Source of the DNA: Candidatus Krumholzibacteriia bacterium
Lineage (GTDB): Bacteria > Krumholzibacteriota > Krumholzibacteriia > Krumholzibacteriales > Krumholzibacteriaceae
Length of the DNA stretch: 64,000 nucleotides
Direction of reading: 5' to 3'
Assembly: GCA_963836185.1 (NCBI GenBank)
Contig: CAWIIQ010000001.1
Span: 2,240,001-2,304,000 of the forward strand
Shown here: positions 37,428-57,385 of the stretch, piece after piece
Position numbering within the stretch: the first letter of the stretch is position 1
Layout: each line of letters starts with the position of its first letter
Notes under the pieces: generated by a model
Seen by the model: the letters and a program-made list of their open reading frames with translations, nothing else
The model's database searches: none
Told to the model about the DNA's origin: nothing
Position numbers and translations under genes: made by a program

Positions 37428-38298
37428 ATGGATGAGATGAAGAGATCTTCAGCGTATCTGCTCATACTTGCGCTTGCCGCCATTTCGTGCGGTTCGATCA
37501 ACAACTACCTCGACCCCGAGGGGCCGAGGGTCGACGGGGATTGCGCCGACGGCGCACCCTGCGAGACAGCCCCCGATACGGTCAAGGTGATCTCATACAA
37601 CGTCAAGTTCGGTAAAAAGGTCGACACGGCGATCGAAGAGCTCAGGACCGTCCCGTACCTGAGACTGCGCCGACATCATCCTGCTCCAGGAGATGGACGG
37701 CGAAGGGGTCAAGCTCATCGCCGACAGTCTCGACCTCGAGTACGTCTACTATCCCGCTTCGGTCCACAAGGCTCACGGCAAGGATTTCGGAAACGCGGTC
37801 CTCTCGAGATGGCCGATCGAGGATTTCAGAAAGGTCATCCTTCCGCACTCGAAACCGACCGATGACCAGAGAAGGATCGCGGTGGGCGCCACCGTCATGG
37901 CCGGCGGCCTGAAGATAAGGGTGTTCAGCGTCCACACCGAGACCTTCTGGATGAACTACGACAAGAGGCTCGAGCAGGCCGATTCACTCGTAAGAGCCAT
38001 CTCGAAGGATTACTCGCAAGCCATCATCGCCGGGGATTTCAATACTCCCTTCGGGAGAAATGTGAAGGATATCGAGAATACTTTTGCCGCTTCGGGGTTC
38101 GTCAGGGCGAATTCGGGTGTGGGATGGACCGCAAGGGTCCTGCCCTTCGGGCTGTGGAAGATGGAACTCGATCATATCTTCGTGAAAGGATTCGAGGTAG
38201 TAAGATCGGGCAAGTTCGAGGAAGGAGAGGCGAGCGATCATGTGCCGCTGTGGACGATACTCAGGCCTCTGCCGGCCGATGTCCCCGATGTTCCTTAA
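37428..38298 (+). CDS. Endonuclease/exonuclease/phosphatase (EEP) family lipoprotein (frameshift near 37665)
   Basis: SYNV, ADIILLQEMD, GNAVLSRWPI, IIAGDFN, LDHIF, SDH. Confidence 0.87.
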
Positions 38299-38310: not shown

Positions 38311-39619
38311 CTACCTGACCCGCTCCCTCTGCCGTTCGGCCTTCTCTCCCGTCGCGAAATGGAACCTGTACCAGGGATCACCATCCTGGAATCCGAAATC
38401 CATCCTCACGAGCCCGACGTACGGGACTATCAGCCTCAGCCCCGTTCCGCCGCTCCACAGGAAGTTCGGCTCGAACTCAGCTTCCGTGTTCCATGCGGAT
38501 CCGAAATCGGTGAAAAAGGCGAGCTGCATCCCGAGGGACGCCGTGATCCCGAAATAGCTGAACGGCCTCGGCTGCATGAAGTTCCAGCGGTACTCGACCG
38601 TATTGATGAACTGGTTCTTGCCTACCTTCGTGCCGACGCCATAACCCCTGATCGAGTTGCTCCCCCCGACACCGAATGTCTGCCAGTAAGCTACCTCTTT
38701 GTTTACCGCTCCGCTTGTATTGGTGTAGAGGGAGAAGAAACACAGGGTATGGTCGAGCGCGAGGGGTTGAAAACGCCTCAGGTCGAAGTTGCTCTGCCAG
38801 AAATCGCTGTCGGTGCCGAATAGTCCAGACTTTGCGAGCTCGACGCTCGACCACCAGCCCTCGTGCGGATTCGAATAGAGATCCCTGCTGTCGTACCCGA
38901 CGAAGAGGCTCCCGTATATGACATGATCAGTATTGTCGGATGAGAGGGTCTTGCCGTCCGTATCGCTCTGGATCCCCTGGTAGTACAGACCGGCCGCCGG
39001 CCCTGCCGTACTCGCCGATATATTTTCTCAGCATAGTGTAGACCTCGTCGGCCGTCTCCGTGAAGCCGTGGATCACGTTGTCCCTGTCACGATGATAATA
39101 TTCCGCCTGGTATCCGATGCGGTTACCCGCTACCCACGGATCGCGAAGGTCGATCTCGACGGTGGTCTCCCCGCCGAACCTCGCCACACCGGAGAGGTAT
39201 ATGGCCCTTCCGAGCAGGTTTACCGACTTGAGCCCGCCTCCTATCGAAAGGCCGTTCTCGTCGCTGACAGAGATACTTACAACGGGGAGATAGGCGAATG
39301 TCTCCTTCACCTCGATGAAGACGACCAGCCCGCCGTCATTGTCAAGCGAAGTATATATCTTGACCTCGCTGAAGATCTGAAGCCGGTCGAGGCGCTCGTA
39401 GTCCTTCTGCTCGTTTTCCTTCGTGAACGGCTCGCCGACCTTCGTAGCGAGCTCGCGATCTACGACGTAGGATTTCGTCGTCTCGAGCCCGATGACTCTA
39501 ATGTCGGTAACGATCTGCCCGTAGACGTGCGAGTCATCGGCTTCCTGCGCACGCGTCGATGAAGCTGTGTAAAGGAGCAGAAGGACCACGGGAAGGAAAG
39601 TATGGACCGATCTCCTCAA
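38311..39619 (-). CDS. Omp85 (BamA/TamA-like) outer-membrane protein with one POTRA domain (several frameshifts)
   Basis: Signal peptide; POTRA (I.V.GL.TTK..V.REL..K.GEPF), NLLGR, IRGY, EYR, FTDFG.AW, GTGLR...RMDFG. Confidence 0.8.
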
Positions 39620-43704: not shown

Positions 43705-45582
43705 TCAATGTGGGATGCTGTATGATACCACCGAGCCGCTGGAGAAGGTAGGGATAATCACCCTCTTCCTCTTCCTGTCGTACCCGAAGTTGGCGATATT
43801 GGCTCCGGGTGATGTAGTATCGAGTATCCTCAAGACCTCTCCGCCTGGAGAGATCCGGTACATCCTGCCTTCCCAGTGCGAGACAAGCAGCCCGCCGGAA
43901 CCGTCAGATTCGATTCCATCGATGATGCCGGGGCCCAGCAGCGGCAAAGGTCTTCATAGAGCCGTCAGCTATATCGACAGCCCTGACGGTCCCGTCTCCA
44001 TTACTGCCGATAAAGAGGGTGCCGCCTTCAGCGTGGAGACCGTTCGGCTGGGCGATCTGCCCCGCGGGGATGAATGCCTCGAAAGACTCCTTCCGAGAAA
44101 CTGTAGACTATCCCCAGGCGCGAATCAGATACGAATACCGCTTCCCCGGCTACGGCGATATCGTTGAGAAAACCTGCCGTGAGAAGGGGATGCCGCGCTG
44201 TCACCTCGCCTGTCGCCGTGTCTATCTCTACGAGGGCCTTGCGCTCGACAGCGAGTAGTGTGTTTCCCTTCAAGGCCATTCCAGTCGGGTTCGACAGGCC
44301 CTTCGCCCAGTCCGATATCGACTATCTTTCCTTCAGGAGTAAGTTTCGAGATCGACTGTCTCCCCGCACCGGGAGCGAAATCGAATCGGTCGAAGTTAGA
44401 TACGTATATCATGTCCAGTCCTGGATCGTAGAGCGCTGTCTCCGGTATCCTGAAGTCCCCGTCGGCCTCCCATTCCTTTCTATGCCCTCGCCTGTGTATA
44501 TCGCCTTCCCGTCCTGACCCATGAATCCCCAGCCGCCGAATCCCTCTGCGACCATCATGAGGAGCTCGTTCTCACCCTTCTCGAGAGGGAGATAGAGCGC
44601 ATCGAAGAAACCGGCGATACCGAGAAAAGAGGGATCACGGTACCTGTAGGAAGAGTTGGCGGCAAAAAGCAGCTGCCCGTTGAGAAAGACAGCAGCAGCG
44701 TCACTGTACCCGAACTTCAGTTCCATCGTCTCATCGCCTTCTGACTCGATGACGGTTTTCGCTATCGCTACATCAGGTTCCCTTCCCGAACGCCCGAAGT
44801 ATTTCGCTATATCTACAAGTCCGCTTGCCGCGCACTCGGCGTCGAGCCAGACGACCTCTCCGATATCCTGCTCCCCGGGATGTTTCTCCAGGTCGACATC
44901 ACTCAATCTGTATGGTCCCGCCAGCTTCCACTTCTCTATCACGCCGGGGGGCGGAAAGCTCGCCGGGGGCGATTCGAAGACGAGGCTGTCGTCAGCCCTC
45001 CAGCTGAAATTTGAGAAGTAGGCCGATCCGTCCCGGGGACCGTTCAACCCGATCGTCCCCCTGCTGATACCATGGACGAGCTCATCGACCTCGAGCACCG
45101 GGGTTTCCATGTCGCCGAGAAATACCCTCGCCTGTGTGCCGCTGCACCTCTATGCGCAGGTGGACCCACTCGCCCGAAGGAATCTCACCGGTAGTGGTGA
45201 ATCCGGCACCGTTGTATAGCTGCCAGCCGGCGATCCCGTTTATCACAGGCGTATACTGGTGCACATCGGGGTACTGTCCGCATGTCCTGTGGGGCCTCAT
45301 GTAATAACGCTCGTAATCCCGGGGCGACTGGATCCTGAAATTTATTCCAGGGTAGGACCGCCTCCCGTCGACGGCTACATCGACATCGATCACGCCGTTC
45401 TCGAATTCCACTCCCTTCAGGAATGCGGTACCGACTAGGCATTCCCTTCCGAGGTGCTCTACCACTGTCGCACCCTGCAGTTCCCAGATCTCCGGATCGA
45501 ATCCGGCCGCACTGGCGGAAACGGCCGCGAAAAGAGATAATACGAGGGTAAGGCCGAATGACGATACCAGGATCCTTCTCAT
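43705..45582 (-). CDS. Secreted multidomain protein: DUF1080-like beta-sandwich plus SMP-30-like beta-propeller (several frameshifts)
   Basis: Signal peptide; FENGVIDVD..GINFR..YERYYMRPH; GYSD..VFLNG; IYVSN, PTGMA, FLNDIA, DGIE.DG.G..LVSHWEG. Confidence 0.65.
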
Positions 45583-45715: not shown

Positions 45716-46708
45716 ATGGAAAAAGTAGGACGCATAAATGCCATAAGGCTTTATCTGCGGGGGAATCTCAATTTCCTCCTGGGCAGGCCTCTTGTCGTCT
45801 CGTTCGAGGTGACCTCGTCGTGCAACGCCGACTGCAGGCACTGCGACAAGGGCGGGATCATCAAGGATGAGAAGCACCTCTCTCCCGATGAGATCGGCGC
45901 CATATACCGGAAGCTCAAGCCGGTCGCAGTGCAGCTCTCCGGGGGCGAGCCCCTCCTCAGAAAAGACATCATCGAGATAGTGCGGGCGATCAAGGAGAAG
46001 GGCGGAGCCCCCTACCTGATCCTCGTCTCCAACGGCCGGCTCCTGACAAAGGAGAAGTACCTCGCCCTCAAGGAGGCGGGCGTCGACCAGATCTCGATCT
46101 CCCTCGACTATCCGGACGAGAGGCACGACGAGTTCAGGAAGATACCGGGGCTCTTCAACTATCTCGAGCAGATAGTCCCTCAGCTTACAGCCGAGGGGAA
46201 CAACGACATCGCGATCAATACGGCGATATCGAGAGAAAACATGACCTCCCTGAGGATGATCTGCGACAGGGCGGAGGAATGGGGAGCGCAGATATCGTAC
46301 AGCGCCTACTCCTCGCTCAGAACCGGGGACACATCTCTCTCGATCAGCAGCGAAGAGGACCTGCGGACACTCAGGGCGGCCATCGATGAGCTGCAGGAGA
46401 TGAAGAGGGCGGGGCGCAGGATCAGAAATACACCCGCGATCCTCGAGAACACGTACGGGTTCTTCCGCGACGGCGGGGTCCCGGGGTGCAAGGCGGGATA
46501 CAGGTTCCTCCTCGTGACGCCGGAAGGTTATCACAGGCCCTGCGCGCACAAGCGCCTGAAGTACGGGTCCCAGAAGGAGCTGATCGAGAACTTCTCGAGG
46601 AACAATAATTGCGGCGGATGCTACGTGGCGATAAGGAGCTACTGCGACAAGTCGTACTTCGACCTCACCAAAGAGCAGATCATCGCGCGCCTGATGCACC
46701 AGACGTAG
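45716..46708 (+). CDS. Radical SAM protein with Twitch/SPASM-type C-terminal cysteines
   Basis: CNADCRHC (CxxxCxxC), SGGEPLLR, SNG, ISLD, CKAG....VTPEG..RPC and CGGCY; upstream TTGACG-17-TATATT promoter. Confidence 0.9.
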   Translation: MEKVGRINAIRLYLRGNLNFLLGRPLVVSFEVTSSCNADCRHCDKGGIIKDEKHLSPDEIGAIYRKLKPVAVQLSGGEPLLRKDIIEIVRAIKEKGGAPYLILVSNGRLLTKEKYLALKEAGVDQISISLDYPDERHDEFRKIPGLFNYLEQIVPQLTAEGNNDIAINTAISRENMTSLRMICDRAEEWGAQISYSAYSSLRTGDTSLSISSEEDLRTLRAAIDELQEMKRAGRRIRNTPAILENTYGFFRDGGVPGCKAGYRFLLVTPEGYHRPCAHKRLKYGSQKELIENFSRNNNCGGCYVAIRSYCDKSYFDLTKEQIIARLMHQT

Positions 46709-46734: not shown

Positions 46735-46764
46735 AAAAAAAGGGCGGCCTCCTGGCCGCCCTTT
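46735..46764. terminator. Bidirectional terminator between the two radical SAM genes
   Basis: A7-GGGCGGCC-tcct-GGCCGCCC-TTT. Confidence 0.85.
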
Positions 46765-46789: not shown

Positions 46790-48545
46790 TCAGGCATCCG
46801 CCCCTCTTTTACGGGCCTTCCATTCATCCATCGAGATCGAGTACTTCTTCTCGATCCTCTCACGGTGGACCGGCCCGGAGTTGTAGGCGCAGAACGGGTA
46901 GAGGCCCTCTGGCGTCGAGTAATGGATCACGCAGCGCTTGACCCTCTCCACGTCGTAGTTGTACCTGTCCTGGAAGTGCATCGCCGCCGCCATAAGGGTG
47001 CGGTATGTCGTCTCCCCGGTCTTCCCCCTGCCCGTGCCCTTGTCGGTAAGCCCTTTGAGGGTATGCATGAACATCTTGACGTCCATCCCCGCGGGAGCTT
47101 TTTTCGGGTCGAAGTATTTGCGGAAAAGACCCGGGACCCTGAGCTTGTAGAAGAAGGAGAAGCGTGAACTCTCTATCTTTTCGGCCAGTTCCTCCATCTC
47201 GGTGAAGAGCCCCTCGACATCGAAGAACCTCGTTATCGGCACGGCGTTGTGATCCTTGTCGACGACAAAATATGTCCCTGCCGAGCAGCAGGGATGAGAG
47301 GTAGCTGTGATCTTGGGATCGCCTGTCACCGCTGCCAGCAGCCTCGAAATAGGCGAGACCATCGAAAGGGGATAGAAATCCCTGCCGACCTCCGTCAGGC
47401 CCGTCCTGGAGATCTCCTCGGCCAGGTCGCCCATCGTGTAGCGCTGGCTCTCCCTCTCCTCTGTCGATATCCTGCCGGTAAAGGCGACCGGCTGGTAGGC
47501 GATCGCCGAGACGACATGGATATTGTCGATGGCGAACTGCAGGATCTTCGGCACCTGGTCGTCGTTGATCCCTTTGACGATCGTCGGGACGAGACAGGCC
47601 TTCATACCGGCCTTGTGGATGTTCTCGAGCGCCTTGCGCTTGATGTCCATCAGCTTCCTGCCCCTGGTGAACTCGTAGACCTCGTCATCTACCCCGTCGA
47701 ACTGCAGGTAGACGGTATGCAGTCCCGCTTCAGCGCATTTCTCGGCGAATCCGGGCTCCGCGAGGGTTATCCCGTTGCTCGCTATCTGGATATGGCTGAA
47801 TCCCATATCCCTCGCTGTGCTTATGATCCGCAGAAATTCGGGATGGATCGTCGGTTCGCCGCCGGAGAACTGTACAGCCGAAGCCGGTGTCGGCTTGTAG
47901 TCGCGCAGCGTCCTGAGCAATTGTACGATCTCATCGAAGCCGGGCTCATATATATAACCGGCGACGCTTGAGTTGGCGAAGCATATCGGGCAGGCGAGGT
48001 TGCACCTGTTCGTAAGGTCGACCTGGCCGAGAAGGGTATGGCTCTGGTGCATGTTGCAGATCCCGCAGTCAGCCGGGCAGTCTACCGCATCGGTGACGAC
48101 CGGGTTCTCGAGCCCTCTTCCCTCCTTGAAGGACCACTCCTGCATCTTGAGGTAAAGAGCGGTGTTTGTCATGACCCTGTCCCTGCAGTATCCGTGATCG
48201 GGGCATGTCTTTTCCATGTAGACATTACCGCGCCAGTCGTAGACCCGGCCGATCACCTTCCGGCCGCATTCGGGGCAGAGAGTCTCCACCGACTTGGGAA
48301 GAAGGCGTACAACCGGATTTATCCGGGACCCGGTATATGTCTGGATAGCATCTTCTGCCTCTACGAAGAGCCTGTCGTTCAGCTTCTCTTCCATGCGGCC
48401 GTGCTCGGGACAGTTCTTCTCGATGAAAGACCTCCCCGCTCTTCCAGACCATCATGCCTGGAACGACACGCTCACACTCGAGACACTGGGTCTCGACATT
48501 AAGAGGCAGTCCGGCCTTGACCGGATCGAACTTCACTCCGGCCAT
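46790..48545 (-). CDS. tes: Tetraether lipid synthase (Tes/GDGT-MAS, MJ0619 family) homolog; radical SAM enzyme (frameshift near 48425)
   Basis: CPEC..EKTCPDHG, CPADCGICNMH, DLTNRCNLACPICFA, QFSGGEPT, YLQFDG, QPVAFTGR, HPCC, MHFQD.YN.DVERV.RCVIHY.TP....PFC.YN. Confidence 0.85.
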
Positions 48546-48720
48546 GAAGACCTTTCTTTCTACTTCTGCAGCTGACGGAGTAGCTCCGGTCTTCTGCGCG
48601 ATTGTCGGGCGCAAATGTAGTCTCCGGAGGATTCATCATCAATTCCTTCCGATACCGGCCTCGAGGCGATGTCACATACTAGTCTTGTTTCTGAAGCAAG
48701 AATTTCCGTTTAACCAGAGA

Positions 48721-48776: not shown

Positions 48777-49428
48777 TCAATACTCGATCAGCTCGTACCC
48801 GTCAGGCACGTAAAGCTCGAATTCGTCAGGGCCGACAGGCACTCCGGACTCCATTGAGCTCGAACTCGAAGATGAGCAGATCCCCTGAATGCTCGCGAAA
48901 GACCACGAGCCTGGGAAGGAAATCGCCGGGGTCAAGCCCCAGCTCTATCATGGAGAAATACGGGGATATCTCATCGGATGTCGGTACCATCTCGAGAATG
49001 ATCAGGCCGTTCTCCTCCCCTTTCAGCGATATATCGAAATCCTCTTTCATGCCTGTCCCGCACGAGCCGAATCCGACTATCGACATGACCCTGTCAGTGC
49101 TCGAGCCTCCCAGCCTTACCTTCTGGATCTGCCTGATATGGGGCAGCACGGTCCAGGCGACATCCCCGTTTACCACCGTACTCGTACTGTCGGGCGAGGT
49201 GAAGCGCCAGCTCAGCATGCCTGGCCGGAGAAATGTGAAATCACCGGATGATTCTTCCTTCTCGTCGAAGAGGGTAAAGACCTTGGTCTGCGTAAACCCT
49301 GCCCTCAGGGAAACGAGCGATTCCCTCGCCGCGCAGTGCGCGTCGAGCACATCGTCGAGCTGGAGTCCCTGCCCACGGGCTGGAGAAAAGAGAAGAAGAA
49401 AAACTGCCAGGAATATCGATACCTTCAT
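48777..49428 (-). CDS. LolA-family periplasmic carrier protein (frameshift near the C-terminus)
   Basis: Signal peptide; SLRAGFTQ, SGDF.F.RPG.L.W.F..P, V.NG; the shifted frame ends FELYVPDGYELIEY*. Confidence 0.82.
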
Positions 49429-49429
49429 A

Positions 49430-50095
49430 TCATTCCCCTCCCGAACGGCGCTTCTCTATGAGTTTCGAGATCCCTTTGATCGCGCCTATCAGGACTGTCG
49501 CTAGAAAGACGTAGAATATCGCCTTGTTAGAGAGCTTCAGCTCGTATCCGAGCCAGGCGAGCAGAAGGTAGCGGGGGAACCGGCCGGCAAAGGTGGCCAG
49601 CGTGTACTTCACCCTCGAGTACCCGGTGGATACGGCCAGTATCCGCACTATATCTATCGGGATCGGCACGAACGAAGCAATCGTCAGTGTCAGGAAAGGA
49701 GCCCTCTCGAACCACTTCACCGCGCTGAGATAGAACCCCCTCTTCTTAACCTTCCCGATGCGGTCAAGGCCGAAGAGATAGTTGAGTATATAGTAGTCGT
49801 GAAGGTTGGCCATGCAGGTCCCCGCGGCGGCAATCAGCGCGACGCTCAGAGGATCGGTCTCCCGCGCCGCCCAGAGAATGATCCACGCGGTAGGCAGGGG
49901 CAGAAAGGTGCACGCCACACTGGTGTAGAGCAGAAGCAGCAGCATTATCTCGAACGGGGCAAACGAGTCGACTTCGCGGCTCAGCAGGTAGAGTGCCCCC
50001 GCCGCGACGAGGAATACGGCGAAAGAAGCGATCCATCTCTTCGCCGAGATATCACGCGTTTCCCGGATCACGGCCGCGTCGGGACATTCGCTCAT
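49430..50095 (-). CDS. DedA/VTT (SNARE-associated) family membrane protein
   Basis: TFLPLP, A..AAAG...A....Y, F.PIP.D, F.GRFPRY; multiple TMs. Confidence 0.8.
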   Translation of the reverse strand: MSECPDAAVIRETRDISAKRWIASFAVFLVAAGALYLLSREVDSFAPFEIMLLLLLYTSVACTFLPLPTAWIILWAARETDPLSVALIAAAGTCMANLHDYYILNYLFGLDRIGKVKKRGFYLSAVKWFERAPFLTLTIASFVPIPIDIVRILAVSTGYSRVKYTLATFAGRFPRYLLLAWLGYELKLSNKAIFYVFLATVLIGAIKGISKLIEKRRSGGE

Positions 50096-50772
50096 GCCCC
50101 CGCTCCTTCTCCGTCTACAGTCATTCCATCCTTCATCTCGATTATCCTGTCGGTCATCGAGGCGAGCGTCCGGTCATGTGTGATCATGAGTATCGTGTGC
50201 CCGTGATCGGAGCTCATCGCCCTGAACAGGTCCATGATGTTGAGCGAGTTCTCGGAGTCGAGATTTCCGGTAGGCTCATCGGCGAGCAGTATCTTCGGCT
50301 CCTTGATAAGGGCGCGTGCGACGGCCACTCTCTGCTGCTCTCCCTGGGAGAGATCGAGCGGCCTCATGTCCATCTTGTGCTCCAGCCCGACACGCTCGAG
50401 CATCGCACTGATACGGCTTTCGGCGCCGCCGAGCCTCCCCTGGATCCTGCACGCGATCCTGAGGTTATCGTATACGCTGAGCGCGCCGATCAGGTTGAAC
50501 TTCTGGAAGACGAACCCGATATTTTCGCGCCTGAACGCCGTGAGCTGTGAATCGCTCGCTCCCGTGATATCAAAACCATCGATCTCGGCACTTCCCGATG
50601 TGGCCTTCAGAAGGCCGCCGAGAAGGTAGAGCAGGGTCGACTTTCCGCACCCCGACGGACCGGCCACCGCGGTGAATCCGCCCTCATCGATCTCGAAGTC
50701 GACGCCCCTGAGGGCATGCACGACTACCCTTCCCGTCCTGTAATCCTTATTGAGATCTTTTACCCTTATCAT
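50092..50772 (-). CDS. ABC transporter ATP-binding protein (LolD/MacB type)
   Basis: GPSGCGKST, IGFVFQ.FNL, LSQGEQQRVAVARAL, ADEPTGNLD, ITHD. Confidence 0.95.
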   Translation of the reverse strand: MIRVKDLNKDYRTGRVVVHALRGVDFEIDEGGFTAVAGPSGCGKSTLLYLLGGLLKATSGSAEIDGFDITGASDSQLTAFRRENIGFVFQKFNLIGALSVYDNLRIACRIQGRLGGAESRISAMLERVGLEHKMDMRPLDLSQGEQQRVAVARALIKEPKILLADEPTGNLDSENSLNIMDLFRAMSSDHGHTILMITHDRTLASMTDRIIEMKDGMTVDGEGAGA

Positions 50773-50777
50773 ATTCC

Positions 50778-51872
50778 TTACTCGTAACTCAGTGCCTCGA
50801 CCGCGTCGTGCCTGACTGCTATATACGCCGGATATAGAGCGCCGATGACTCCCCCGGCTATCCCGAGAAGGCTCCCGGTGACCATCCAGTATGCAGTGAC
50901 CTCGATCGTCAGAAGCGGGTATACCATACCAAGGTACTTCACTGCCGCGAATGTCAGGATAAAACCGACTACGACGCCGCAGACGGTCAGGATGACCGAT
51001 TCGAGGAGGATGTTTCCCATTATGAAGGCCCTCGACGCGCCGAGTGACTTGAGGATGCCTATCTCCTTCGTACGCTCCATTATAGTCGTATACATCGCCA
51101 GCAGGATGACCAGCAGGCTCACTATCAGGGTCGTCGCGGTGATCGCTCCGATGAATTCCTTCAGCCCGCTCATCGAGTCAGCCATCTCGTCGGCGAAATT
51201 CTCGAGAAGCTGGCACTTCACACCCTTGATCTCCGATTCGATCCTTTGAGCAGTCGGCTTCACCGCTTCGGGCGAGTCGCACCTGACGAAGAACAGGGAG
51301 ACCCTGTCCTCCTGATGAAGCATTGACTGGAGCTCGCTCTTGAGCATGAATATCCTCGCTCCGATCCCTTCCTTCGATATACCGACGATACCGAAGGAGG
51401 TTCCGAGCATCTCGATGTTGTCTCCGATGACCAGCCCTGTCGCGGCGGCCATCCTCGAGTCGATCACGATCTCTCCGTCGGCGGAAAGCTGCCTCCCCTC
51501 GACGATCTTCAGCTCGCCGCCTATCGTCGAGAACTGGGCAGGATCGATCCCGTAGACGACATAGAACTGGTTCCTGAATGTCGTCGTCCATGTGACGACC
51601 GGAGATACGGCGCTCACTCCTTCGACTTCCGATATCAGTTTTCCGTATTTCTCGGGGATTATGCCGCTCTTGAGGGCAAAGAAGTTAGTGGCGCCTGCCT
51701 GCTGGACGATCATGTCGCCCCCGACGTTCTGTATCCGTGACGCGACCTCGTTGATAGAGCCCCGAGTCATCCCCACGAGGACGAGCAGCAGGGTCACGCC
51801 GATGGCAACGGCCAGGATGCTGATCATGCTCCTGACCTTTCTCTGAAGTATATTGGCTAACGCGAGTGTCAC
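50778..51872 (-). CDS. ABC transporter permease (type VII, LolE/MacB/FtsX-like)
   Basis: TM1, periplasmic domain, then three TMs; ERTKEIGILKSLGA and YPA..A....VEAL.YE. Confidence 0.92.
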   Translation of the reverse strand: MTLALANILQRKVRSMISILAVAIGVTLLLVLVGMTRGSINEVASRIQNVGGDMIVQQAGATNFFALKSGIIPEKYGKLISEVEGVSAVSPVVTWTTTFRNQFYVVYGIDPAQFSTIGGELKIVEGRQLSADGEIVIDSRMAAATGLVIGDNIEMLGTSFGIVGISKEGIGARIFMLKSELQSMLHQEDRVSLFFVRCDSPEAVKPTAQRIESEIKGVKCQLLENFADEMADSMSGLKEFIGAITATTLIVSLLVILLAMYTTIMERTKEIGILKSLGASRAFIMGNILLESVILTVCGVVVGFILTFAAVKYLGMVYPLLTIEVTAYWMVTGSLLGIAGGVIGALYPAYIAVRHDAVEALSYE

Positions 51873-52756
51873 TCTTCATCGTCCTGGTCGAGCCTGATGA
51901 CCTTCGTGCCGAGGGGCGCCTCGAACCTGAACGCCTCCGGCGGTATACCGGTCGGGTTCAGTGTCAGATCCCGTATCCTTATCGAGATCTCCCTGCCCGA
52001 ATCGGGTTTGAATATCGTGATCTCCAGGGGATAATGCAAGCCGTCTGAAAGCGTATGCTTCGACCTGCGCAACTCGAGGTCCTCCCCGCCAGCCGGATTG
52101 TAGTATTTTTCCATGACGACCGCGAACATCTTTTTTTCTATCCACAGCCTCCGCAGCAGGCTGCCGTCACGCGTCAGTGTAAGGATATAGACTCCCGACT
52201 CCTCGCTCAACCCTGCGACATCTGCCGGATCGAAGGGCTCGACGAAGAGCGCCCTCGACAGGTCCGCCGCCTCGAGATCGACCTCGGCCGTATCGGCAGT
52301 TTCCACCCGGTCGTACGGCCCGGAATAGACGACCTTCTCGCTCGGGATGTGCAGCCAGAACCCGGTACCGTCACTCTTCAATGTGAAGAATGAAGGAATC
52401 AAATTCTTGTATCCCTTGAGGTATATCTTCGAGCCGATGCCTTCCCATTCGGATCTGAGCGCGACAAGTTTTCCCTGGCACCCCTTTACCTTTTCACCAG
52501 GTGCGCGAAGGAAGAACATGTCGAGGTCGGCCTTTATCCCACGCACGCTGCCAGACCGTGCGTTGATTCCATCGACCAGCTCTGCCGCAGTAGCCTCGAG
52601 CTCCGGCATCATCGTCGTGTCGACGGGTTCTACGTTCGGATCTCCAGCACAGCCGCAGGTGACAATGACAGTCAGCACGAAAAGGTTCCGGGCACGCGCC
52701 AGGACACGACCTGGAACAATATTACAATTTCTGGTGATCAATATCTCCTGCTTCAT
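51869..52756 (-). CDS. Lipoprotein with probable LolA/LolB-like fold (DUF4292-like)
   Basis: Lipobox VTCGC; SDG..FWL.IP, RRLWI, YP..I.I..P and C-terminal F.FEAP.G; start uncertain. Confidence 0.6.
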   Translation of the reverse strand: MKQEILITRNCNIVPGRVLARARNLFVLTVIVTCGCAGDPNVEPVDTTMMPELEATAAELVDGINARSGSVRGIKADLDMFFLRAPGEKVKGCQGKLVALRSEWEGIGSKIYLKGYKNLIPSFFTLKSDGTGFWLHIPSEKVVYSGPYDRVETADTAEVDLEAADLSRALFVEPFDPADVAGLSEESGVYILTLTRDGSLLRRLWIEKKMFAVVMEKYYNPAGGEDLELRRSKHTLSDGLHYPLEITIFKPDSGREISIRIRDLTLNPTGIPPEAFRFEAPLGTKVIRLDQDDEE

Positions 52757-52825: not shown

Positions 52826-54238
52826 TCAATCGGAGCTTTCCTCTTCACCTTCCGGTCCCCAACCCCCTCCGAGGGATTTGTAAAGCAAGATATAGGAGTT
52901 AAGGTATGTCTGCCTGAGTTCGGAGAGCTCGAGCTCAACACCAAACAGGGTCCTCTCGGTCTCGAGCACCTCGAGGTAGCTGGTCACTCCCTTGTCATAC
53001 CGCTCAGCCGACAGCCGGGCCGCGTTCCTCGCCGCTGCCAGCTTACGCTCCGCCGCTTCCATCTGGTCCCTGTAGGTCCTGACGCCTGTGAGGGCGTCCT
53101 CGACCTCCCTGAACGCCTCAAGGACGGTGTTCTCGTACTGCAGGACTGACTGCCAGGCCCGCTCCCTCTCAATATCTACCCGCCTGCTGTTCTTCCCGAA
53201 ATTGAAGATCGGCCCAGCCAGAGTGCCGGCGACCGACCAGGCGGCGTCTCCTGTCGTGAAGGTCGACAGGTCGTCACTCGCGAAGCCCAGTATCCCGGTC
53301 AGGCCGATCGCGGGTAGCCTCATCGCCTGGGCCACCCCGATCCTGGCGTTCTGTGCCTTGGCCAGATACTTTGCCTGCAGGATGTCCGGCCGCCTGTCGA
53401 GAAGGCCTGAAGGGATCCCCGGGGGGATGTCGGGAGGGATGGTCCTGTCGAAGATATCTCCATACAATCCGAGATCAGCAGGCGTTCTTCCCAGGAGCAC
53501 GCTTAAAGCGTTCTCCGTCACAGCTATGAGGCGCTCGTAGACAGGGACGGCGCCGACGGCTATCTCCAGCTGGATCTCCGCCTGGTTAACGTCGAGCTCG
53601 GGGATAATACCCTTGTCGAACCGCTGCTGGATTATGTGGAGGCTCCCTTTCCTCGATTCAACTGTATGCCTCGATATATCTAGCCTGTGCATGTAGTCAA
53701 GGAGCAGGAAGTATGTCCTGGCGACTTCCGAGATGAGACTGAGCTGCACGCTCCGGAGCGAGTACTCGGAGGCCATCAGCTCGGAGGCTGCGGCCTCGTT
53801 CGAGCGGCGGAACTTTCCCCAGAAATCGATCTCCCAGCTCAGGGCCGGAGCGAGGTAGTAGTTCTCGTTAATCGTCTCGGACTTGTTCGTACCGAGGAGA
53901 TTGCCCCTCGAGGCGCCCCCGACTATATCGAGCTTGGGATAGATATCTGCCTTGGTGAATCCCAGCGCAGCCCTGGCCTCCTCGATCCTGCTTGCCGCGA
54001 TCAGCGCGGTTTTGTTCTCACGTAGGGCCGTGGCAATCAGAGAATCGAGGACCGCGTCCTCGAACAGGTCCCACCAGGCAAGCTCGAGACGGGGATCGAT
54101 CCGGAGCGAATCAAATGTGTCGGCCCTGTACGATTCGGGTGTCTCGACGACAGGTTCCTCGAAATCGGGACCCATCGCGCAACCGGCCAACACCGCCGTA
54201 AATATGACTATGAATATCCTGACAGATCGATCCATCAT
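52826..54238 (-). CDS. RND efflux outer-membrane lipoprotein (NodT/OprM family)
   Basis: LAGCAMGPDF, WW..F.D..L, WEIDFWG, LL.RRPDI, LYKSLGGGW. Confidence 0.95.
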   Translation of the reverse strand: MMDRSVRIFIVIFTAVLAGCAMGPDFEEPVVETPESYRADTFDSLRIDPRLELAWWDLFEDAVLDSLIATALRENKTALIAASRIEEARAALGFTKADIYPKLDIVGGASRGNLLGTNKSETINENYYLAPALSWEIDFWGKFRRSNEAAASELMASEYSLRSVQLSLISEVARTYFLLLDYMHRLDISRHTVESRKGSLHIIQQRFDKGIIPELDVNQAEIQLEIAVGAVPVYERLIAVTENALSVLLGRTPADLGLYGDIFDRTIPPDIPPGIPSGLLDRRPDILQAKYLAKAQNARIGVAQAMRLPAIGLTGILGFASDDLSTFTTGDAAWSVAGTLAGPIFNFGKNSRRVDIERERAWQSVLQYENTVLEAFREVEDALTGVRTYRDQMEAAERKLAAARNAARLSAERYDKGVTSYLEVLETERTLFGVELELSELRQTYLNSYILLYKSLGGGWGPEGEEESSD

Positions 54239-57200
54239 TTCTCCGTTAACCCGGCCTTTACAGGAACCCTGTTTTTCTCATACCCCGCCAGGCGCCCGAT
54301 CAGAACGAAAAGCATCGGGTAGAAGAAGACCCCGAGCACGGTCGCCAACAACATGCCTCCGAACAAGGACATGCCCATGACCTTCCTCGCTTCCGCTCCT
54401 GCACCTGAGGCAAATATCAGCGGCATTATGCCCAGGATGAACGAGAATGCTGTCATAAGTATCGGCCTGAACCGCAGCTTCGCCGACTTGATGGCAGCGT
54501 CGAAGAGGGAAAGCCCCCCGTCGAATTCGATTTTCGCGAATTCCACGATGAGGATCGCGTTCTTCGCGGCCATGCCGATAAGCATCACCAGCGAGATCTG
54601 GGCGAAAACGTTGGACAGATAGCTCTCGCTGAAAAGCCTCGCAACGAAGAGCGCTAGGAAGGCACCCAGGATTGCGAACGGAGTCCCCAGCAGGATGCTC
54701 AGAGGCAGAGACCAGCTCTCGTACTGCGCGGCCAGGATAAGGAAGACAAAGATCAGTGAAAAGACAAAGACGACAGCCCCTGTCCCGGAAGCCTTCTTCT
54801 CCTGGAACGACATGTCGGTCCACGCCAGAGCCATATCCGAGGGGAGTACCTTCGCAGCGACCTCTTCTATGGCTGCCATAGCCTGTGCCGATGAGTATCC
54901 TGGCGCGTTGCTCCCCTTTACCTCGATCGACCTGAAAAGGTTGAACCTGTTCACATAATCCGGCCCGGTCGATTCGCGGGTATTTACGAACGCTGACAGA
55001 GGAGCGCTGATCGCCCGCGTCGTTCCTGACAAAGAAGAGGTCCATCTTGTCCGCGTCCTGCCTGAATTCCGGCTCAGCCTGGATATAAGTCTTGTACAGG
55101 CGCCCGAACCTGTTGAAATCGTTGACATAGGCTCCTCCAAGAAAGGCTCCTATCGTGGTATAGACATTGTTGAGGGAAACTCCGGATTGTAGCACCTTGT
55201 CGCGGTCGATCTCGAGGAACCTCTGGGGAACGGCTGCCCTGAAGGTCGTGAATGCAGAGCCGATCTCCGGCCGCTGCGTCAGTTCCCGGATCAGCCCGGC
55301 AGTCTGTAGTGAGAGGTACTCGGGGGTGTTCCCGCCCCTGTCCTGGACCATCATCGAGAAGCCCGATCCGTTGCCCAGGCCCGGGATAGGCGGTGGGCCG
55401 AAGGCGAAGACCTGCCCCTCCTTGAACCCGGCACTGAACTCTCTGTTGAGGCTCCTGATGATCTCATTGGCCGTCCTGTCCCTGTCGCTCCACTCCCTGA
55501 GGCTGACGGCGACGAAACCGCCGTTCGTAGACATGGTGCCCGAGAGCATGCTGTATCCCGTCGCAGTGGTATAGTACGAGACCTCCTCGTATTTCTTGAG
55601 GGTCTCCTCCACTTTTTTCATCACTGCGTCGCTCCTCTGAAGAGACGCGGCGTCGGGCAGCTGCATGTTGATAAAGAGATAGCCCAGGTCCTCGTCAGGC
55701 ATGAACCCGGTCGGAAGAACGATCCCGAGAATCACCATAGCGATGATGGCGATGCCGATAAAGGCCACGCCGCGCTTTATCCTTCGCGTCAGGATATTTG
55801 TCAGCCCCATGTAGGAGCCGGATGATTTCTCGTAGACCTTCTCGAACCATGTGAAGAACTTGCCAAGCGGTCCGCCGTAAGGCTTCGATTTCCTCAGCAG
55901 GATAGAGCAGAGGGCCGGGCTGAGCGTCAGGGCATTGAGAGACGAGAAGAGCACTGAAATAGTGACTGTTATCGCGAACTGCTGGTAAAGCCTTCCGGTG
56001 ATCCCGGCGATTCCGACGGTTGGGAGGAAGACGGCGACGAGCACGAGCGTCGTCGCGATCACGGGCGCCATCACCTCTCGTATCGCCTTGTTAGTGGCTT
56101 CCTTCGCGTCCATCCCCTTTTCGATGTTCACCTGGACCGCCTCGGTCACGACGATCGCGTCATCCACAACGATACCGATCGCGAGGACAAGTCCAAGAAG
56201 AGAGAGCACGTTGATCGTGAACCCGAGCATAGGGAAGACGATGAATGCGCCGATCAGTGAGACGGGGATAGCTACCGTCGGAATCAGGGTGGCCCGCCAG
56301 TCCTGTATGAATACGAATACGACCAGTATTACGAGTACCAGGGCGATAAGCAGGGTCACGATGATCTCATCGATGCCGGCCGTGATCGCTTGTGTGGAAT
56401 CAAAGGATATATCGTACCTGATCCCTTCCGGGAAGGACCTGGTCATCGTCTCCATCGCCGCGCGTACCTGCTCCGCGAGCTGTACCGCATTCGAACCGGG
56501 GGCCTGGTAAAGGGCGATCATTGCGCATTCCTGGCCGTTCATCCTCGTGAAGGCAAGATAACTCTCGACTCCCAGCTCGACCCGCGCCAGGTCCCTGATC
56601 TTAACCTGGGCGCCGCTGTCGCTTGTGCGTACGACTATATCCCCGAATTCCTCCTCGGTCTGAAGCCTGTCGGGGAGCTTGACCGTGTAGGTGAACTCGG
56701 TACCGGGAGGAGCAGGCTCGGCTCCGAACCTTCCACCCGGGACGATGACACTCTGGGCCTTTATCGCATCGACGATCTCGGGTACCGTGATCCCGAGCTG
56801 CGCCAGCCGATCGGGCCTTATCCATATCCGCATCGAGTAGTCGGACGCTCCCATAACATCGACACGCCCGATACCAGTGATGCGGGCGAGCATATCCTTG
56901 ATGTTGATCAGTGCGTAATTTCCGAGGAAATCCTGGTCGTATCGGTCGCCCTCCGACGTCAACGCTATCAGCATCATCATGTTGGGCATCGATTTCTCGG
57001 TCGTGACACCGGTCCTCTTTACTTCCTCGGGCAGTTTAGCCGTCGCGGAGGCGACCCTGTTCTGCGTGAACACGGTGTTCATGTCGGGATCGGTTCCGAC
57101 GTCGAACGAGACATTGATCGTCATCTGGCCGTCGTTCGAGTTCGTCGACTTCATGTAGATCATTTTTTCAACGCCGTTGATCTGCTGCTCGAGAGGAGTG

Positions 57201-57385
57201 GCGACGGACTGCTCCACGCTCATGGCGTTGGCGCCCGTATAGTTTGCCTTGACCGAGACCACCGGCGGGGTGATATCAGGGTACTGCTCAGTCGGAAGCG
57301 TCCTGAGAGATATGAGGCCGACGATGATGATCACAACGGCGATCACCATAGCGACTATGGGCCTGCGTACGAAGAAATAGTCCAT
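54235..57385 (-). CDS. RND efflux permease (HAE1 family; frameshift near 55010)
   Basis: FFVRRPIVA, EQYPDITPP, GIVVDDAIVV; the second frame carries KNAILIVEFA and RFRPILMT. Confidence 0.93.

What the first reader, a model, noticed from the sequence alone, without database searches (positions are those of the whole stretch)
46790..48545. Bacterial homolog of the archaeal tetraether lipid synthase (Tes/GDGT-MAS) with all metal-site motifs intact
Seen: a rubredoxin-like CPEC...CPDH module, an N-terminal auxiliary cluster motif CPADCGICNMH, the radical SAM motif CNLACPIC, and C-terminal HPCC, RCVIHY and PFC, with the Met of MHF exactly 20 residues before the Tyr of IHY. Established, recalled from memory: this is the architecture of the MJ0619/Tes family that forms C-C bonds between lipid tails, and the Met ligand and Tyr of that enzyme have the same spacing. 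Bacterial homologs are known but their products are largely unresolved. Inference: this diderm bacterium may make membrane-spanning or macrocyclic lipids (branched-GDGT or diabolic-acid-like). No GGGP or DGGGP synthase is in this window, so the substrate is unknown.
Basis: partly seen in the sequence, partly recalled or inferred. Interest (0 to 1): 0.85.

Follow-up and report, generated by a model that had tools for sequence, protein, structure and literature searches.

The report
Double-rubredoxin Tes with lipid export cassette
This bacterial gene encodes a member of the enzyme family that archaea use to weld lipid tails into membrane-spanning lipids; it carries an extra metal-binding module and travels between unrelated bacteria with a second radical enzyme and a small transport system, so the seven genes likely make a tail-joined lipid and likely ship it to the outer membrane.

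Summary
The protein passes the NCBIfam Tes cut-off (533 vs 450 bits) and groups with Tes, not TrsS. Bacterial Tes homologues are catalogued since 2022; no activity test was found. The scan saw this duplication before in Phycisphaerae. (2) Tes belongs to a seven-gene cassette: second radical SAM, LolA-like carrier, DedA/VTT protein, LolD-like ATPase, LolE-like permease, DUF4292-like lipoprotein. It recurs in four gene orders in three phyla. The permease occurs in 4 of 208 phylum genomes, all among the 5 with this Tes; housekeeping LolC/E lies elsewhere. The genome has PlsX, FabH and Ger/PlsA, but no GGGP synthase or hopanoid cyclase was found. Best reading: tail-to-tail coupling of bacterial ether/ester lipids plus dedicated export; product untested. 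The cultured Anaeromyxobacter sp. Fw109-5 has Tes and the second enzyme at consecutive accessions.

The parts
46790..48636 (-). Tes-family radical SAM gene, 614 codons in intact orthologues; two +1 insertions near 48602 and 48426 in this assembly
48401..48485 (-). extra (first) rubredoxin-like module CLEC...CPEH, interrupted by the insertion at 48426
   Evidence: (two PF23545 stretches in P0004 and P0142)
48194..48277 (-). canonical rubredoxin-like module CPEC...CPDH (= C9/C12/C33/H36 of MJ0619)
47981..48079 (-). N-terminal auxiliary cluster motif and radical SAM CxxxCxxC
46889..47296 (-). C-terminal auxiliary cluster region: three invariant Cys, Met (M439) and Tyr (Y459)
45716..46708 (+). second radical SAM enzyme (330 aa, four invariant C-terminal Cys, SPASM/twitch type), convergent with Tes; uncharacterised family
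46738..46764 (.). G+C hairpin flanked by A and T runs between the two convergent stop codons; likely two-way terminator
   Evidence: read from the sequence
48777..49428 (-). LolA-like periplasmic carrier with signal-like N-terminus; +1 insertion at 48859 in this assembly
   Evidence: (PF03548 42 bits, cut-off 23.6)
49430..50095 (-). VTT-domain (DedA-superfamily) membrane protein
   Evidence: PF09335 36.4 bits, cut-off 33.9
50092..50772 (-). LolD/MacB-type ABC ATPase
   Evidence: below the LolD equivalog cut-off
50778..51872 (-). LolC/E-like (MacB_PCD + FtsX) permease, not the housekeeping LolC/E
51869..52756 (-). predicted lipoprotein (invariant Cys36) with weak DUF4292 / LolA-superfamily likeness; candidate acceptor
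   Evidence: all weak

Best explanation
The gene encodes a Tes-family radical SAM enzyme with a duplicated rubredoxin-like module, and it is the core of a seven-gene cassette that likely joins the tails of the host's own fatty-acid-derived ether or ester phospholipids into membrane-spanning (or macrocyclic) lipids and likely exports the product across the periplasm. Shown here: family membership, all metal ligands, the extra module, the cassette and its co-distribution. Inferred from GDGT-MAS: SAM-derived 5'-deoxyadenosyl radicals abstract H from a tail end, the first radical is parked on a sulfur of the C-terminal cluster, the second forms the C-C bond. Inferred from the genome: substrates come from PlsX/FabH and Ger/PlsA, not from archaeal isoprenoid ethers. 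Inferred from domain types only: the extra module is a further electron-relay site; the second radical SAM modifies the lipid or its precursor; the DedA protein moves lipid across the inner membrane; the ABC pump loads it on the LolA-like carrier, which hands it to the lipoprotein.
For: Tes equivalog 533 bits over cut-off 450, TrsS 316 under 490. Model of the intact orthologue P0004 (pLDDT 89.6) aligns to 7TOL at Z 44.8, rmsd 2.2 A over 477 residues; next unrelated entry Z 22. Tree: Tes apart from TrsS 100/100, cassette-type subclade 100/100, double-module clade 100/97. At least one partner gene lies beside Tes in 9 of 9 other loci of the subclade, all six in 4 of 9; none in 37 other loci and 0 of 80 metagenome loci of other Tes groups, apart from generic ABC ATPase or efflux hits. 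Permease in 4 of 208 phylum genomes, all with this Tes; housekeeping LolC/E elsewhere in 5 of 5 genus genomes; Pfam LolA only in the 2 of 5 that have the cassette. Independent link: of 8 regions picked only by a 41-44% relative of the permease in an Acidobacteriota class, 7 hold a distant Tes-like gene just downstream. A VTT-radical SAM fusion of the two partner families exists in G137. PlsX, FabH, Ger/PlsA domains present; PcrB not found in 0 of 6 cassette genomes. GDGT-MAS binds E. coli ester phospholipids (PMC9433317). Second-hand: Tes-only Koribacter makes iso-diabolic tetraesters, Tes+Ger Solibacter makes brGDGTs (PMC13023045 citing Chen 2025).
Against: No bacterial Tes has a confirmed activity in the papers read. 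Tes was absent from all non-acidobacterial diabolic-acid producers and in only 3 of 14 acidobacterial iso-diabolic-acid producers (PMC13159169); halobacteria with Tes homologues make no GDGT and MA_1114 gave only traces of macrocycle. This genome also has an Mss-like gene, so tail coupling may have another source here. Ger/PlsA is in 37 of 42 genomes of the family, so its presence in 5 of 5 cassette genomes is not specific. Linkage is imperfect: G013 has the second radical SAM without Tes; in G201 (80% complete, N-run beside the locus) neither it nor the permease was found. Lol-type systems are known as lipoprotein carriers; cargo and direction are not shown. The lipoprotein's family hits are all below cut-off.
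Confidence: 0.52

Rival explanations
1. Tes couples lipid tails as in the main reading, but the Lol-like genes carry lipoproteins (including the cassette's own lipoprotein, perhaps with Tes-modified acyl anchors), not a free lipid.
For: The transport genes resemble LolA, LolD and LolC/E; the only Pfam LolA hit in G000 is the cassette's; the cassette encodes a predicted lipoprotein. An earlier scan note links other Tes-like genes to Lgt (not tested here).
Against: A separate housekeeping LolC/E is present in 5 of 5 genus genomes; 3 of 5 of them have no Pfam LolA hit at all; no Lgt-like gene or acyltransferase lies in the cassette.
Confidence: 0.2
2. The two radical SAM enzymes make a different, non-spanning lipid (ring closure, cross-link or tail modification of a glycolipid or isoprenoid), and the Tes fold is used for related C-C or C-S chemistry.
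For: The second enzyme's chemistry is unknown: nearest solved structures are generic SPASM/twitch enzymes, HpnH-like clusters appear among feature look-alikes; the acidobacterial sister cassette includes a polyprenyl synthase-like gene; the cassette is accessory (5 of 208 genomes) and an Mss-like gene is already present in G000.
Against: All Tes ligands and the whole fold are kept; no squalene-hopene cyclase found in G000, G004 or G208 (2 of 5 cassette genomes have it); the Mss-like gene was not found in 5 of 5 other cassette genomes.
Confidence: 0.2
3. In this organism the gene is a decaying pseudogene, broken by two frameshifts.
For: Two +1 insertions in Tes and one in the LolA-like gene; no reads of the same strain were available.
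Against: EF-G and other conserved genes of this assembly are also split over frames; 12 of 46 matched segments show a frame change (the 46 include opposite-strand shadows). Contigs of relatives in 4 of 4 runs lack the base at 48426 and at 48600-48602. The protein is 95% identical to intact P0004 with no stop.
Confidence: 0.05
4. It is a pterin dimethyltransferase, as some database names of homologues say.
For: JGI names on some hits, e.g. P0010, P0052, P0054.
Against: Lloyd 2022 could not corroborate this activity for MJ0619 and found a lipid tunnel.
Confidence: 0.02

Closest known systems
GDGT-MAS / Tes of Methanocaldococcus jannaschii (MJ0619; PDB 7TOL, 7TOM; NCBIfam NF045702)
   Same: Domain order, rubredoxin, both auxiliary clusters, radical SAM core, M439, Y459, Q268, R275; 39% identity over 477 structurally aligned residues.
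   Different: Extra ~90-residue folded N-terminal part with a second CxxC...CxxH module; bacterial host with no GGGP synthase found; C438 and C456 replaced, S271 variable; linked to a transport cassette.
Bacterial Tes homologues (Zeng 2022; Solibacter and Koribacter hypotheses)
   Same: Same family and same open question; Anaeromyxobacter sp. Fw109-5 Anae109_0183 is in Zeng's supplementary tree, probably the orthologue ABS24401.1 (mapping not verified).
   Different: This subclade, its double module and its cassette are not described in the papers searched.
Mss and Ger (Sahonero-Canavesi 2022)
   Same: Same kind of proposed product (tail-coupled fatty chains, ether bonds); the genome has a Ger/PlsA and an Mss-like gene elsewhere.
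   Different: Mss is a different radical SAM family (CNxxCxGC, VEPC); no rubredoxin or N-terminal cluster motif.
Gms clustered with Tes in Planctomycetes and Acidobacteria (Garcia 2024)
   Same: A second SPASM/twitch radical SAM beside tes.
   Different: The partner here is 330 aa, has four C-terminal Cys and lacks the ~100-aa N-terminal extension; 28% identity to the Gms-like neighbour of L083 over 238 columns.
LolCDE-LolA-LolB lipoprotein sorting
   Same: Type VII-like ABC pump, LolA-fold carrier, lipoprotein of possibly related fold.
   Different: One permease gene, all scores below the Lol equivalog cut-offs, accessory distribution, plus a DedA/VTT protein and two radical SAM enzymes.

Membership tests
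Tes / GDGT-MAS (NF045702) | Score above the curated equivalog cut-off and below that of the sister family TrsS | tested here: met
   533 vs 450; TrsS 316 vs 490; intact P0004 551
Tes / GDGT-MAS (NF045702) | Rubredoxin-like C-x2-C-x20-C-x2-H and N-terminal cluster C73/C77/C80 + His | tested here: met
   invariant in 86 of 86 aligned homologues
Tes / GDGT-MAS (NF045702) | C-terminal cluster with 3 Cys + Met439, and Tyr459 | tested here: met
   Met, Tyr and exactly three C-terminal Cys invariant; the Cys ligand numbers of MJ0619 were not in the text read, so their match is inferred from the alignment
Tes / GDGT-MAS (NF045702) | Groups with archaeal Tes against TrsS; same overall fold | tested here: met
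   (archaeal rows identified by adjacent CarS or TFIIB in 3 loci; MJ0619 itself not in the tree); Z 44.8 to 7TOL
Tes / GDGT-MAS (NF045702) | Conserved lining of the two lipid pockets | not tested
   pocket residues not listed in the text read; model coordinates not inspectable
Tes / GDGT-MAS (NF045702) | Forms Csp3-Csp3 bonds between lipid tails | not testable with these tools
   needs assay or lipidomics
Archaeal GDGT pathway | GGGP synthase to supply isoprenoid diethers | tested here: not met
   PF01884 not found in G000 (92.5% complete) nor 5 other cassette genomes; controls ring
Gms (for the 330-aa partner) | AhbD-like core with ~100-aa N-terminal extension and two auxiliary clusters | tested here: not met
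   about 25 residues precede the core, four invariant C-terminal Cys
LolCDE/LolA/LolB (for the transport genes) | Scores above Lol equivalog cut-offs; housekeeping distribution | tested here: not met
   LolD 210 vs 308, LolCE 60 vs 362, LolA 54 vs 112; 4 of 208 genomes
Mss (for G000 C1:136248-137666) | Six motif blocks and similarity to the tested Mss proteins | tested here: inconclusive
   CNxxCxGC, GGEP, W-x-x-Q..P..R and V-x-PC seen by eye against the text description; no reference sequence was available for alignment

The most novel reading that the evidence does not exclude
A mobile seven-gene cassette makes a membrane-spanning lipid with a five-metal-site Tes, tailors it with an uncharacterised radical SAM enzyme, and delivers it to the outer membrane through a dedicated DedA-ABC-LolA-lipoprotein route: a first transport pathway for bipolar lipids in diderm bacteria, and a source of branched-GDGT-type lipids in anoxic sediments.
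Probability: 0.3. Interest if true: 0.85.

Novelty: new variant of a known kind. Interest (0 to 1): 0.58.

Why it matters
What bacterial Tes homologues make is an open question tied to the source of brGDGTs used as palaeoclimate proxies. A compact cassette that moves as a unit, with a cultured carrier of at least the two enzymes, makes it testable. It also suggests where the product goes: how a diderm cell would place a lipid with two head groups in, or move it between, membranes was not addressed in the papers read. The doubled module offers a handle on the rubredoxin site, whose role in GDGT-MAS is unknown.

Tried and rejected
I first took the TIGR03960 protein (C2:283756-286368) for Mss from memory; the Sci Adv supplement lists TIGR03960 and Mss as different proteins, so dropped. 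Hopanoid substrate: no cyclase found in G000, G004, G208. Ger co-occurrence as support: not specific. Gms identity of the partner: rejected. Profile comparison of the lipoprotein with the LolA-like protein gave probability 10%. Fold and sequence searches of the partner gave only generic SPASM/twitch enzymes. Plasmid search gave 7 distant (28-32%) records only. The metagenome scan covered 3 of 64 parts and returned no member of the subclade. No RNA holder listed. The extra N-terminal part was not folded or searched alone, so no fold claim beyond its Pfam match. Frameshift survey is rough: 46 segments include shadows. Literature searches with 0 hits: Tes+tetraether+LolA+bacteria, Anaeromyxobacter+tetraether+membrane-spanning, Tes homolog+gene cluster+transporter+brGDGT from 2023; no search was run on the duplicated rubredoxin module other. 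The library lacks most subscription journals. No complex prediction was run. ElbD, AGPS, DGGGP synthase and branched-chain starter enzymes were not searched.

Full report
Observation. The minus-strand ORF 48394-46790 (534 aa) holds every motif listed, with Met and Tyr 20 residues apart. It scores 533 bits on NCBIfam Tes (cut-off 450) and 316 on TrsS (cut-off 490) and matches 7TOL at E 7e-126. In that alignment the motifs fall on the ligands given by Lloyd et al. (PMC9433317; parts 1-4 of 9 and passages read): C9/C12/C33/H36, C73/C77/C80, the radical SAM cysteines, M439 and Y459. It is the only Tes over cut-off in the genome.

The gene is longer than the ORF. The three best homologues are 614-615 aa. 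tblastn places their N-terminus at 48636 and shows three frames; the span is 1847 bases against 1845 expected. Contigs of relatives in 4 of 4 runs laid lack one base at 48426 and one at 48600-48602, and 2 of 4 lack one at 48859 in the next gene. EF-G and other conserved genes of this assembly are also split. These are relatives, not the same strain, so assembly error is likely, not proven.

The added part carries a second rubredoxin-like module. Pfam finds two PF23545 stretches in P0004 and P0142. Of the 67 best hits, 57 have two CxxC...CxxH modules; the other 10 are 391-576 aa, and the 6 of them inspected begin inside or after the first module. Among all 120 listed hits 22 have a four-Cys first module; an earlier scan note (e1-3773874) reported that form in Phycisphaerae. 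C51, C54 and C75 of P0004 are invariant in 86 of 86 aligned sequences, which I chose for being full length. The AlphaFold model of P0004 has pLDDT 76-98 over residues 21-110; residues 111-610 align to 7TOL at Z 44.8, rmsd 2.2 A.

Tree. With the extra module cut away, 48 proteins give Tes apart from TrsS at 100/100, a clade of 18 double-module or long-N-terminus proteins at 100/97, and inside it a 12-row subclade at 100/100 holding the window protein, Syntrophobacter, Acidobacteriota and Anaeromyxobacter sequences (a 105-row FastTree agrees). Archaeal rows came from metagenome loci; 3 were confirmed by adjacent CarS or TFIIB and 2 outgroup rows by the TrsS cut-off. MJ0619 itself was not available. 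The label 'cassette' was checked by DNA for only some of the 12 rows.

Host. Same class as G201, whose Tes NCBI labels 'Candidatus Latescibacterota'; the GTDB name is probably Krumholzibacteriota (recalled, not from a call). Relatives at about 90-95% come from marine sediment and salt marsh runs.

The cassette. Six neighbours recur with this Tes: the convergent 330-aa radical SAM, a LolA-like protein, a VTT/DedA protein, a LolD-like ATPase, a LolC/E-like permease and a predicted lipoprotein. All six are in L001 (same order as the window), L002 (Acidobacteriota), L013 and L014 (Desulfobacteraceae and Syntrophobacter labels); five in L004, two in L003 and L200, one in L021, all ending at contig ends; LolA and part of the ATPase in L167 beside an N-run. 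That is 9 of 9 loci with a partner, 4 of 9 with all, in four gene orders. The other 37 loci and 80 of 80 metagenome loci, with Tes or TrsS at 25-56% identity, show none, though many are short. 16 of the 67 best Tes hits share a longest-contig length with one of the 79 best hits of the partner enzyme, 0 with its next 41 hits. In Anaeromyxobacter sp. Fw109-5 the two enzymes are ABS24401.1 and ABS24400.1; its transport genes were not examined. In the phylum, subclade Tes is in 5 of 208 genomes (E below 1e-200; 12 have any Tes at 1e-100), the permease in 4 of 208, all among those 5, the close partner enzyme in 5, 4 of them shared. In the class of G210, 3 of 122 have this Tes. Housekeeping LolC/E lies elsewhere. 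Exceptions: G013 has the partner alone, G201 lacks hits for partner and permease. Patchiness and a tree that mixes phyla suggest transfer as a unit; no donor was tested.

A second, independent link. In the class of G208, 12 of 26 genomes have the permease or a 42-44% relative. Of 8 such regions fetched, 7 have a distant Tes-like gene downstream of permease, ATPase and mostly a LolA-like gene. That protein scores 314 on Tes, under the cut-off, lacks the N-terminal cluster motif, keeps the C-terminal ones and sits on a long branch. Earlier scan notes e1-1111875 and e1-971817 describe similar Tes/LolA or radical SAM/Lol contexts; I did not test them.

Substrate. G000 has PlsX and FabH and a Ger/PlsA-type gene with BcrAD and DUF2229 domains at C3:321892-324462, its 5' part in another frame, matching the B-B-D core described in PMC13159169 (sections 9 part 1 and 10 and supplement passages read). 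DUF2229 is in 88 of 208 phylum genomes and 37 of 42 of the family, so it is background. No PcrB-family GGGP synthase in 6 of 6 cassette genomes searched; hopanoid cyclase in 2 of 5. An Mss-like gene (C1:136248-137666) is in G000 and 29 of 208 phylum genomes but was not found in 5 other cassette genomes. Whether tails are straight or iso-branched was not determined.

Mechanism. By homology, tail-end H abstraction, sulfur-parked intermediate on the C-terminal cluster and C-C coupling; GDGT-MAS binds E. coli phospholipids. The partner enzyme is not Gms and has only generic structural relatives; its fusion to a VTT domain in G137 suggests work at the membrane. Export of the product by the ABC-LolA-lipoprotein set is inferred from domain types and linkage only.

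Known versus new. Zeng 2022 (PMC8941075, passages and supplement search; one supplement file was unreadable) listed 456 bacterial homologues and proposed the brGDGT role; Halamka (PMC10087280, passages), Boukhchtaber (PMC11868695, passages), Garcia (PMC11214058, passages), the 2026 review (PMC13459092, sections 2.1-2.3), PMC13274423 (passages) and PMC13023045 (passages) report no direct test; Chen et al. 2025 (GCA) was seen only as cited there. Against the role: Tes is missing from most known diabolic-acid producers. The cassette was not found in print. Verdict: a true Tes-family member, ordinary as such; the double module and the seven-gene cassette make it a new variant, interest 0.58.

Noticed in passing
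L215-L221 (e.g. L217:6667-14304, genomes of the class of G208): Operon of LolA-like, polyprenyl-synthase-like, lipoprotein, permease, ATPase, second LolA-like and a divergent Tes-like enzyme that lacks the N-terminal cluster motif; G208 has both this and the window-type cassette.
   Followed up: partly
L185:2302-4080 (G137): Fusion of a VTT/DedA domain to a radical SAM 41% identical to the window's second enzyme.
   Followed up: partly
G000 C1:136248-137666 (L070:2249-3667): Mss-like radical SAM; 20 of 42 genomes of the family have it, some in 2-3 copies.
   Followed up: partly
G000 C3:321290-325589 (L064:4291-8590): Ger/PlsA-type reductase in pieces with a downstream PlsR-like gene; near-universal in the family.
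   Followed up: partly
L055-L057, L163-L166: A second, single-module Tes group (40-46% identity, over cut-off in the one scored) in 7 of 208 phylum genomes, without the cassette.
   Followed up: partly
L083:10237-11940; also L080, L082: Gms-like radical SAM directly downstream of double-module Tes in the sister clade, in place of the cassette.
   Followed up: partly
window 44409-45582, 54235-57385, 37428-38298, 38311-39619: Several other genes appear split over two frames (an unknown protein, an RND pump, a phosphatase-like and a BamA-like protein), in line with a noisy assembly.
   Followed up: no
G000 C1:161844-164714: Anaerobic ribonucleotide reductase NrdD and its activase NrdG read as one 956-aa frame; fusion or artefact not checked.
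   Followed up: no
genomes G001, G003, G006: LolC/E present but no Pfam LolA hit in three same-genus genomes of 93-97% completeness.
   Followed up: no
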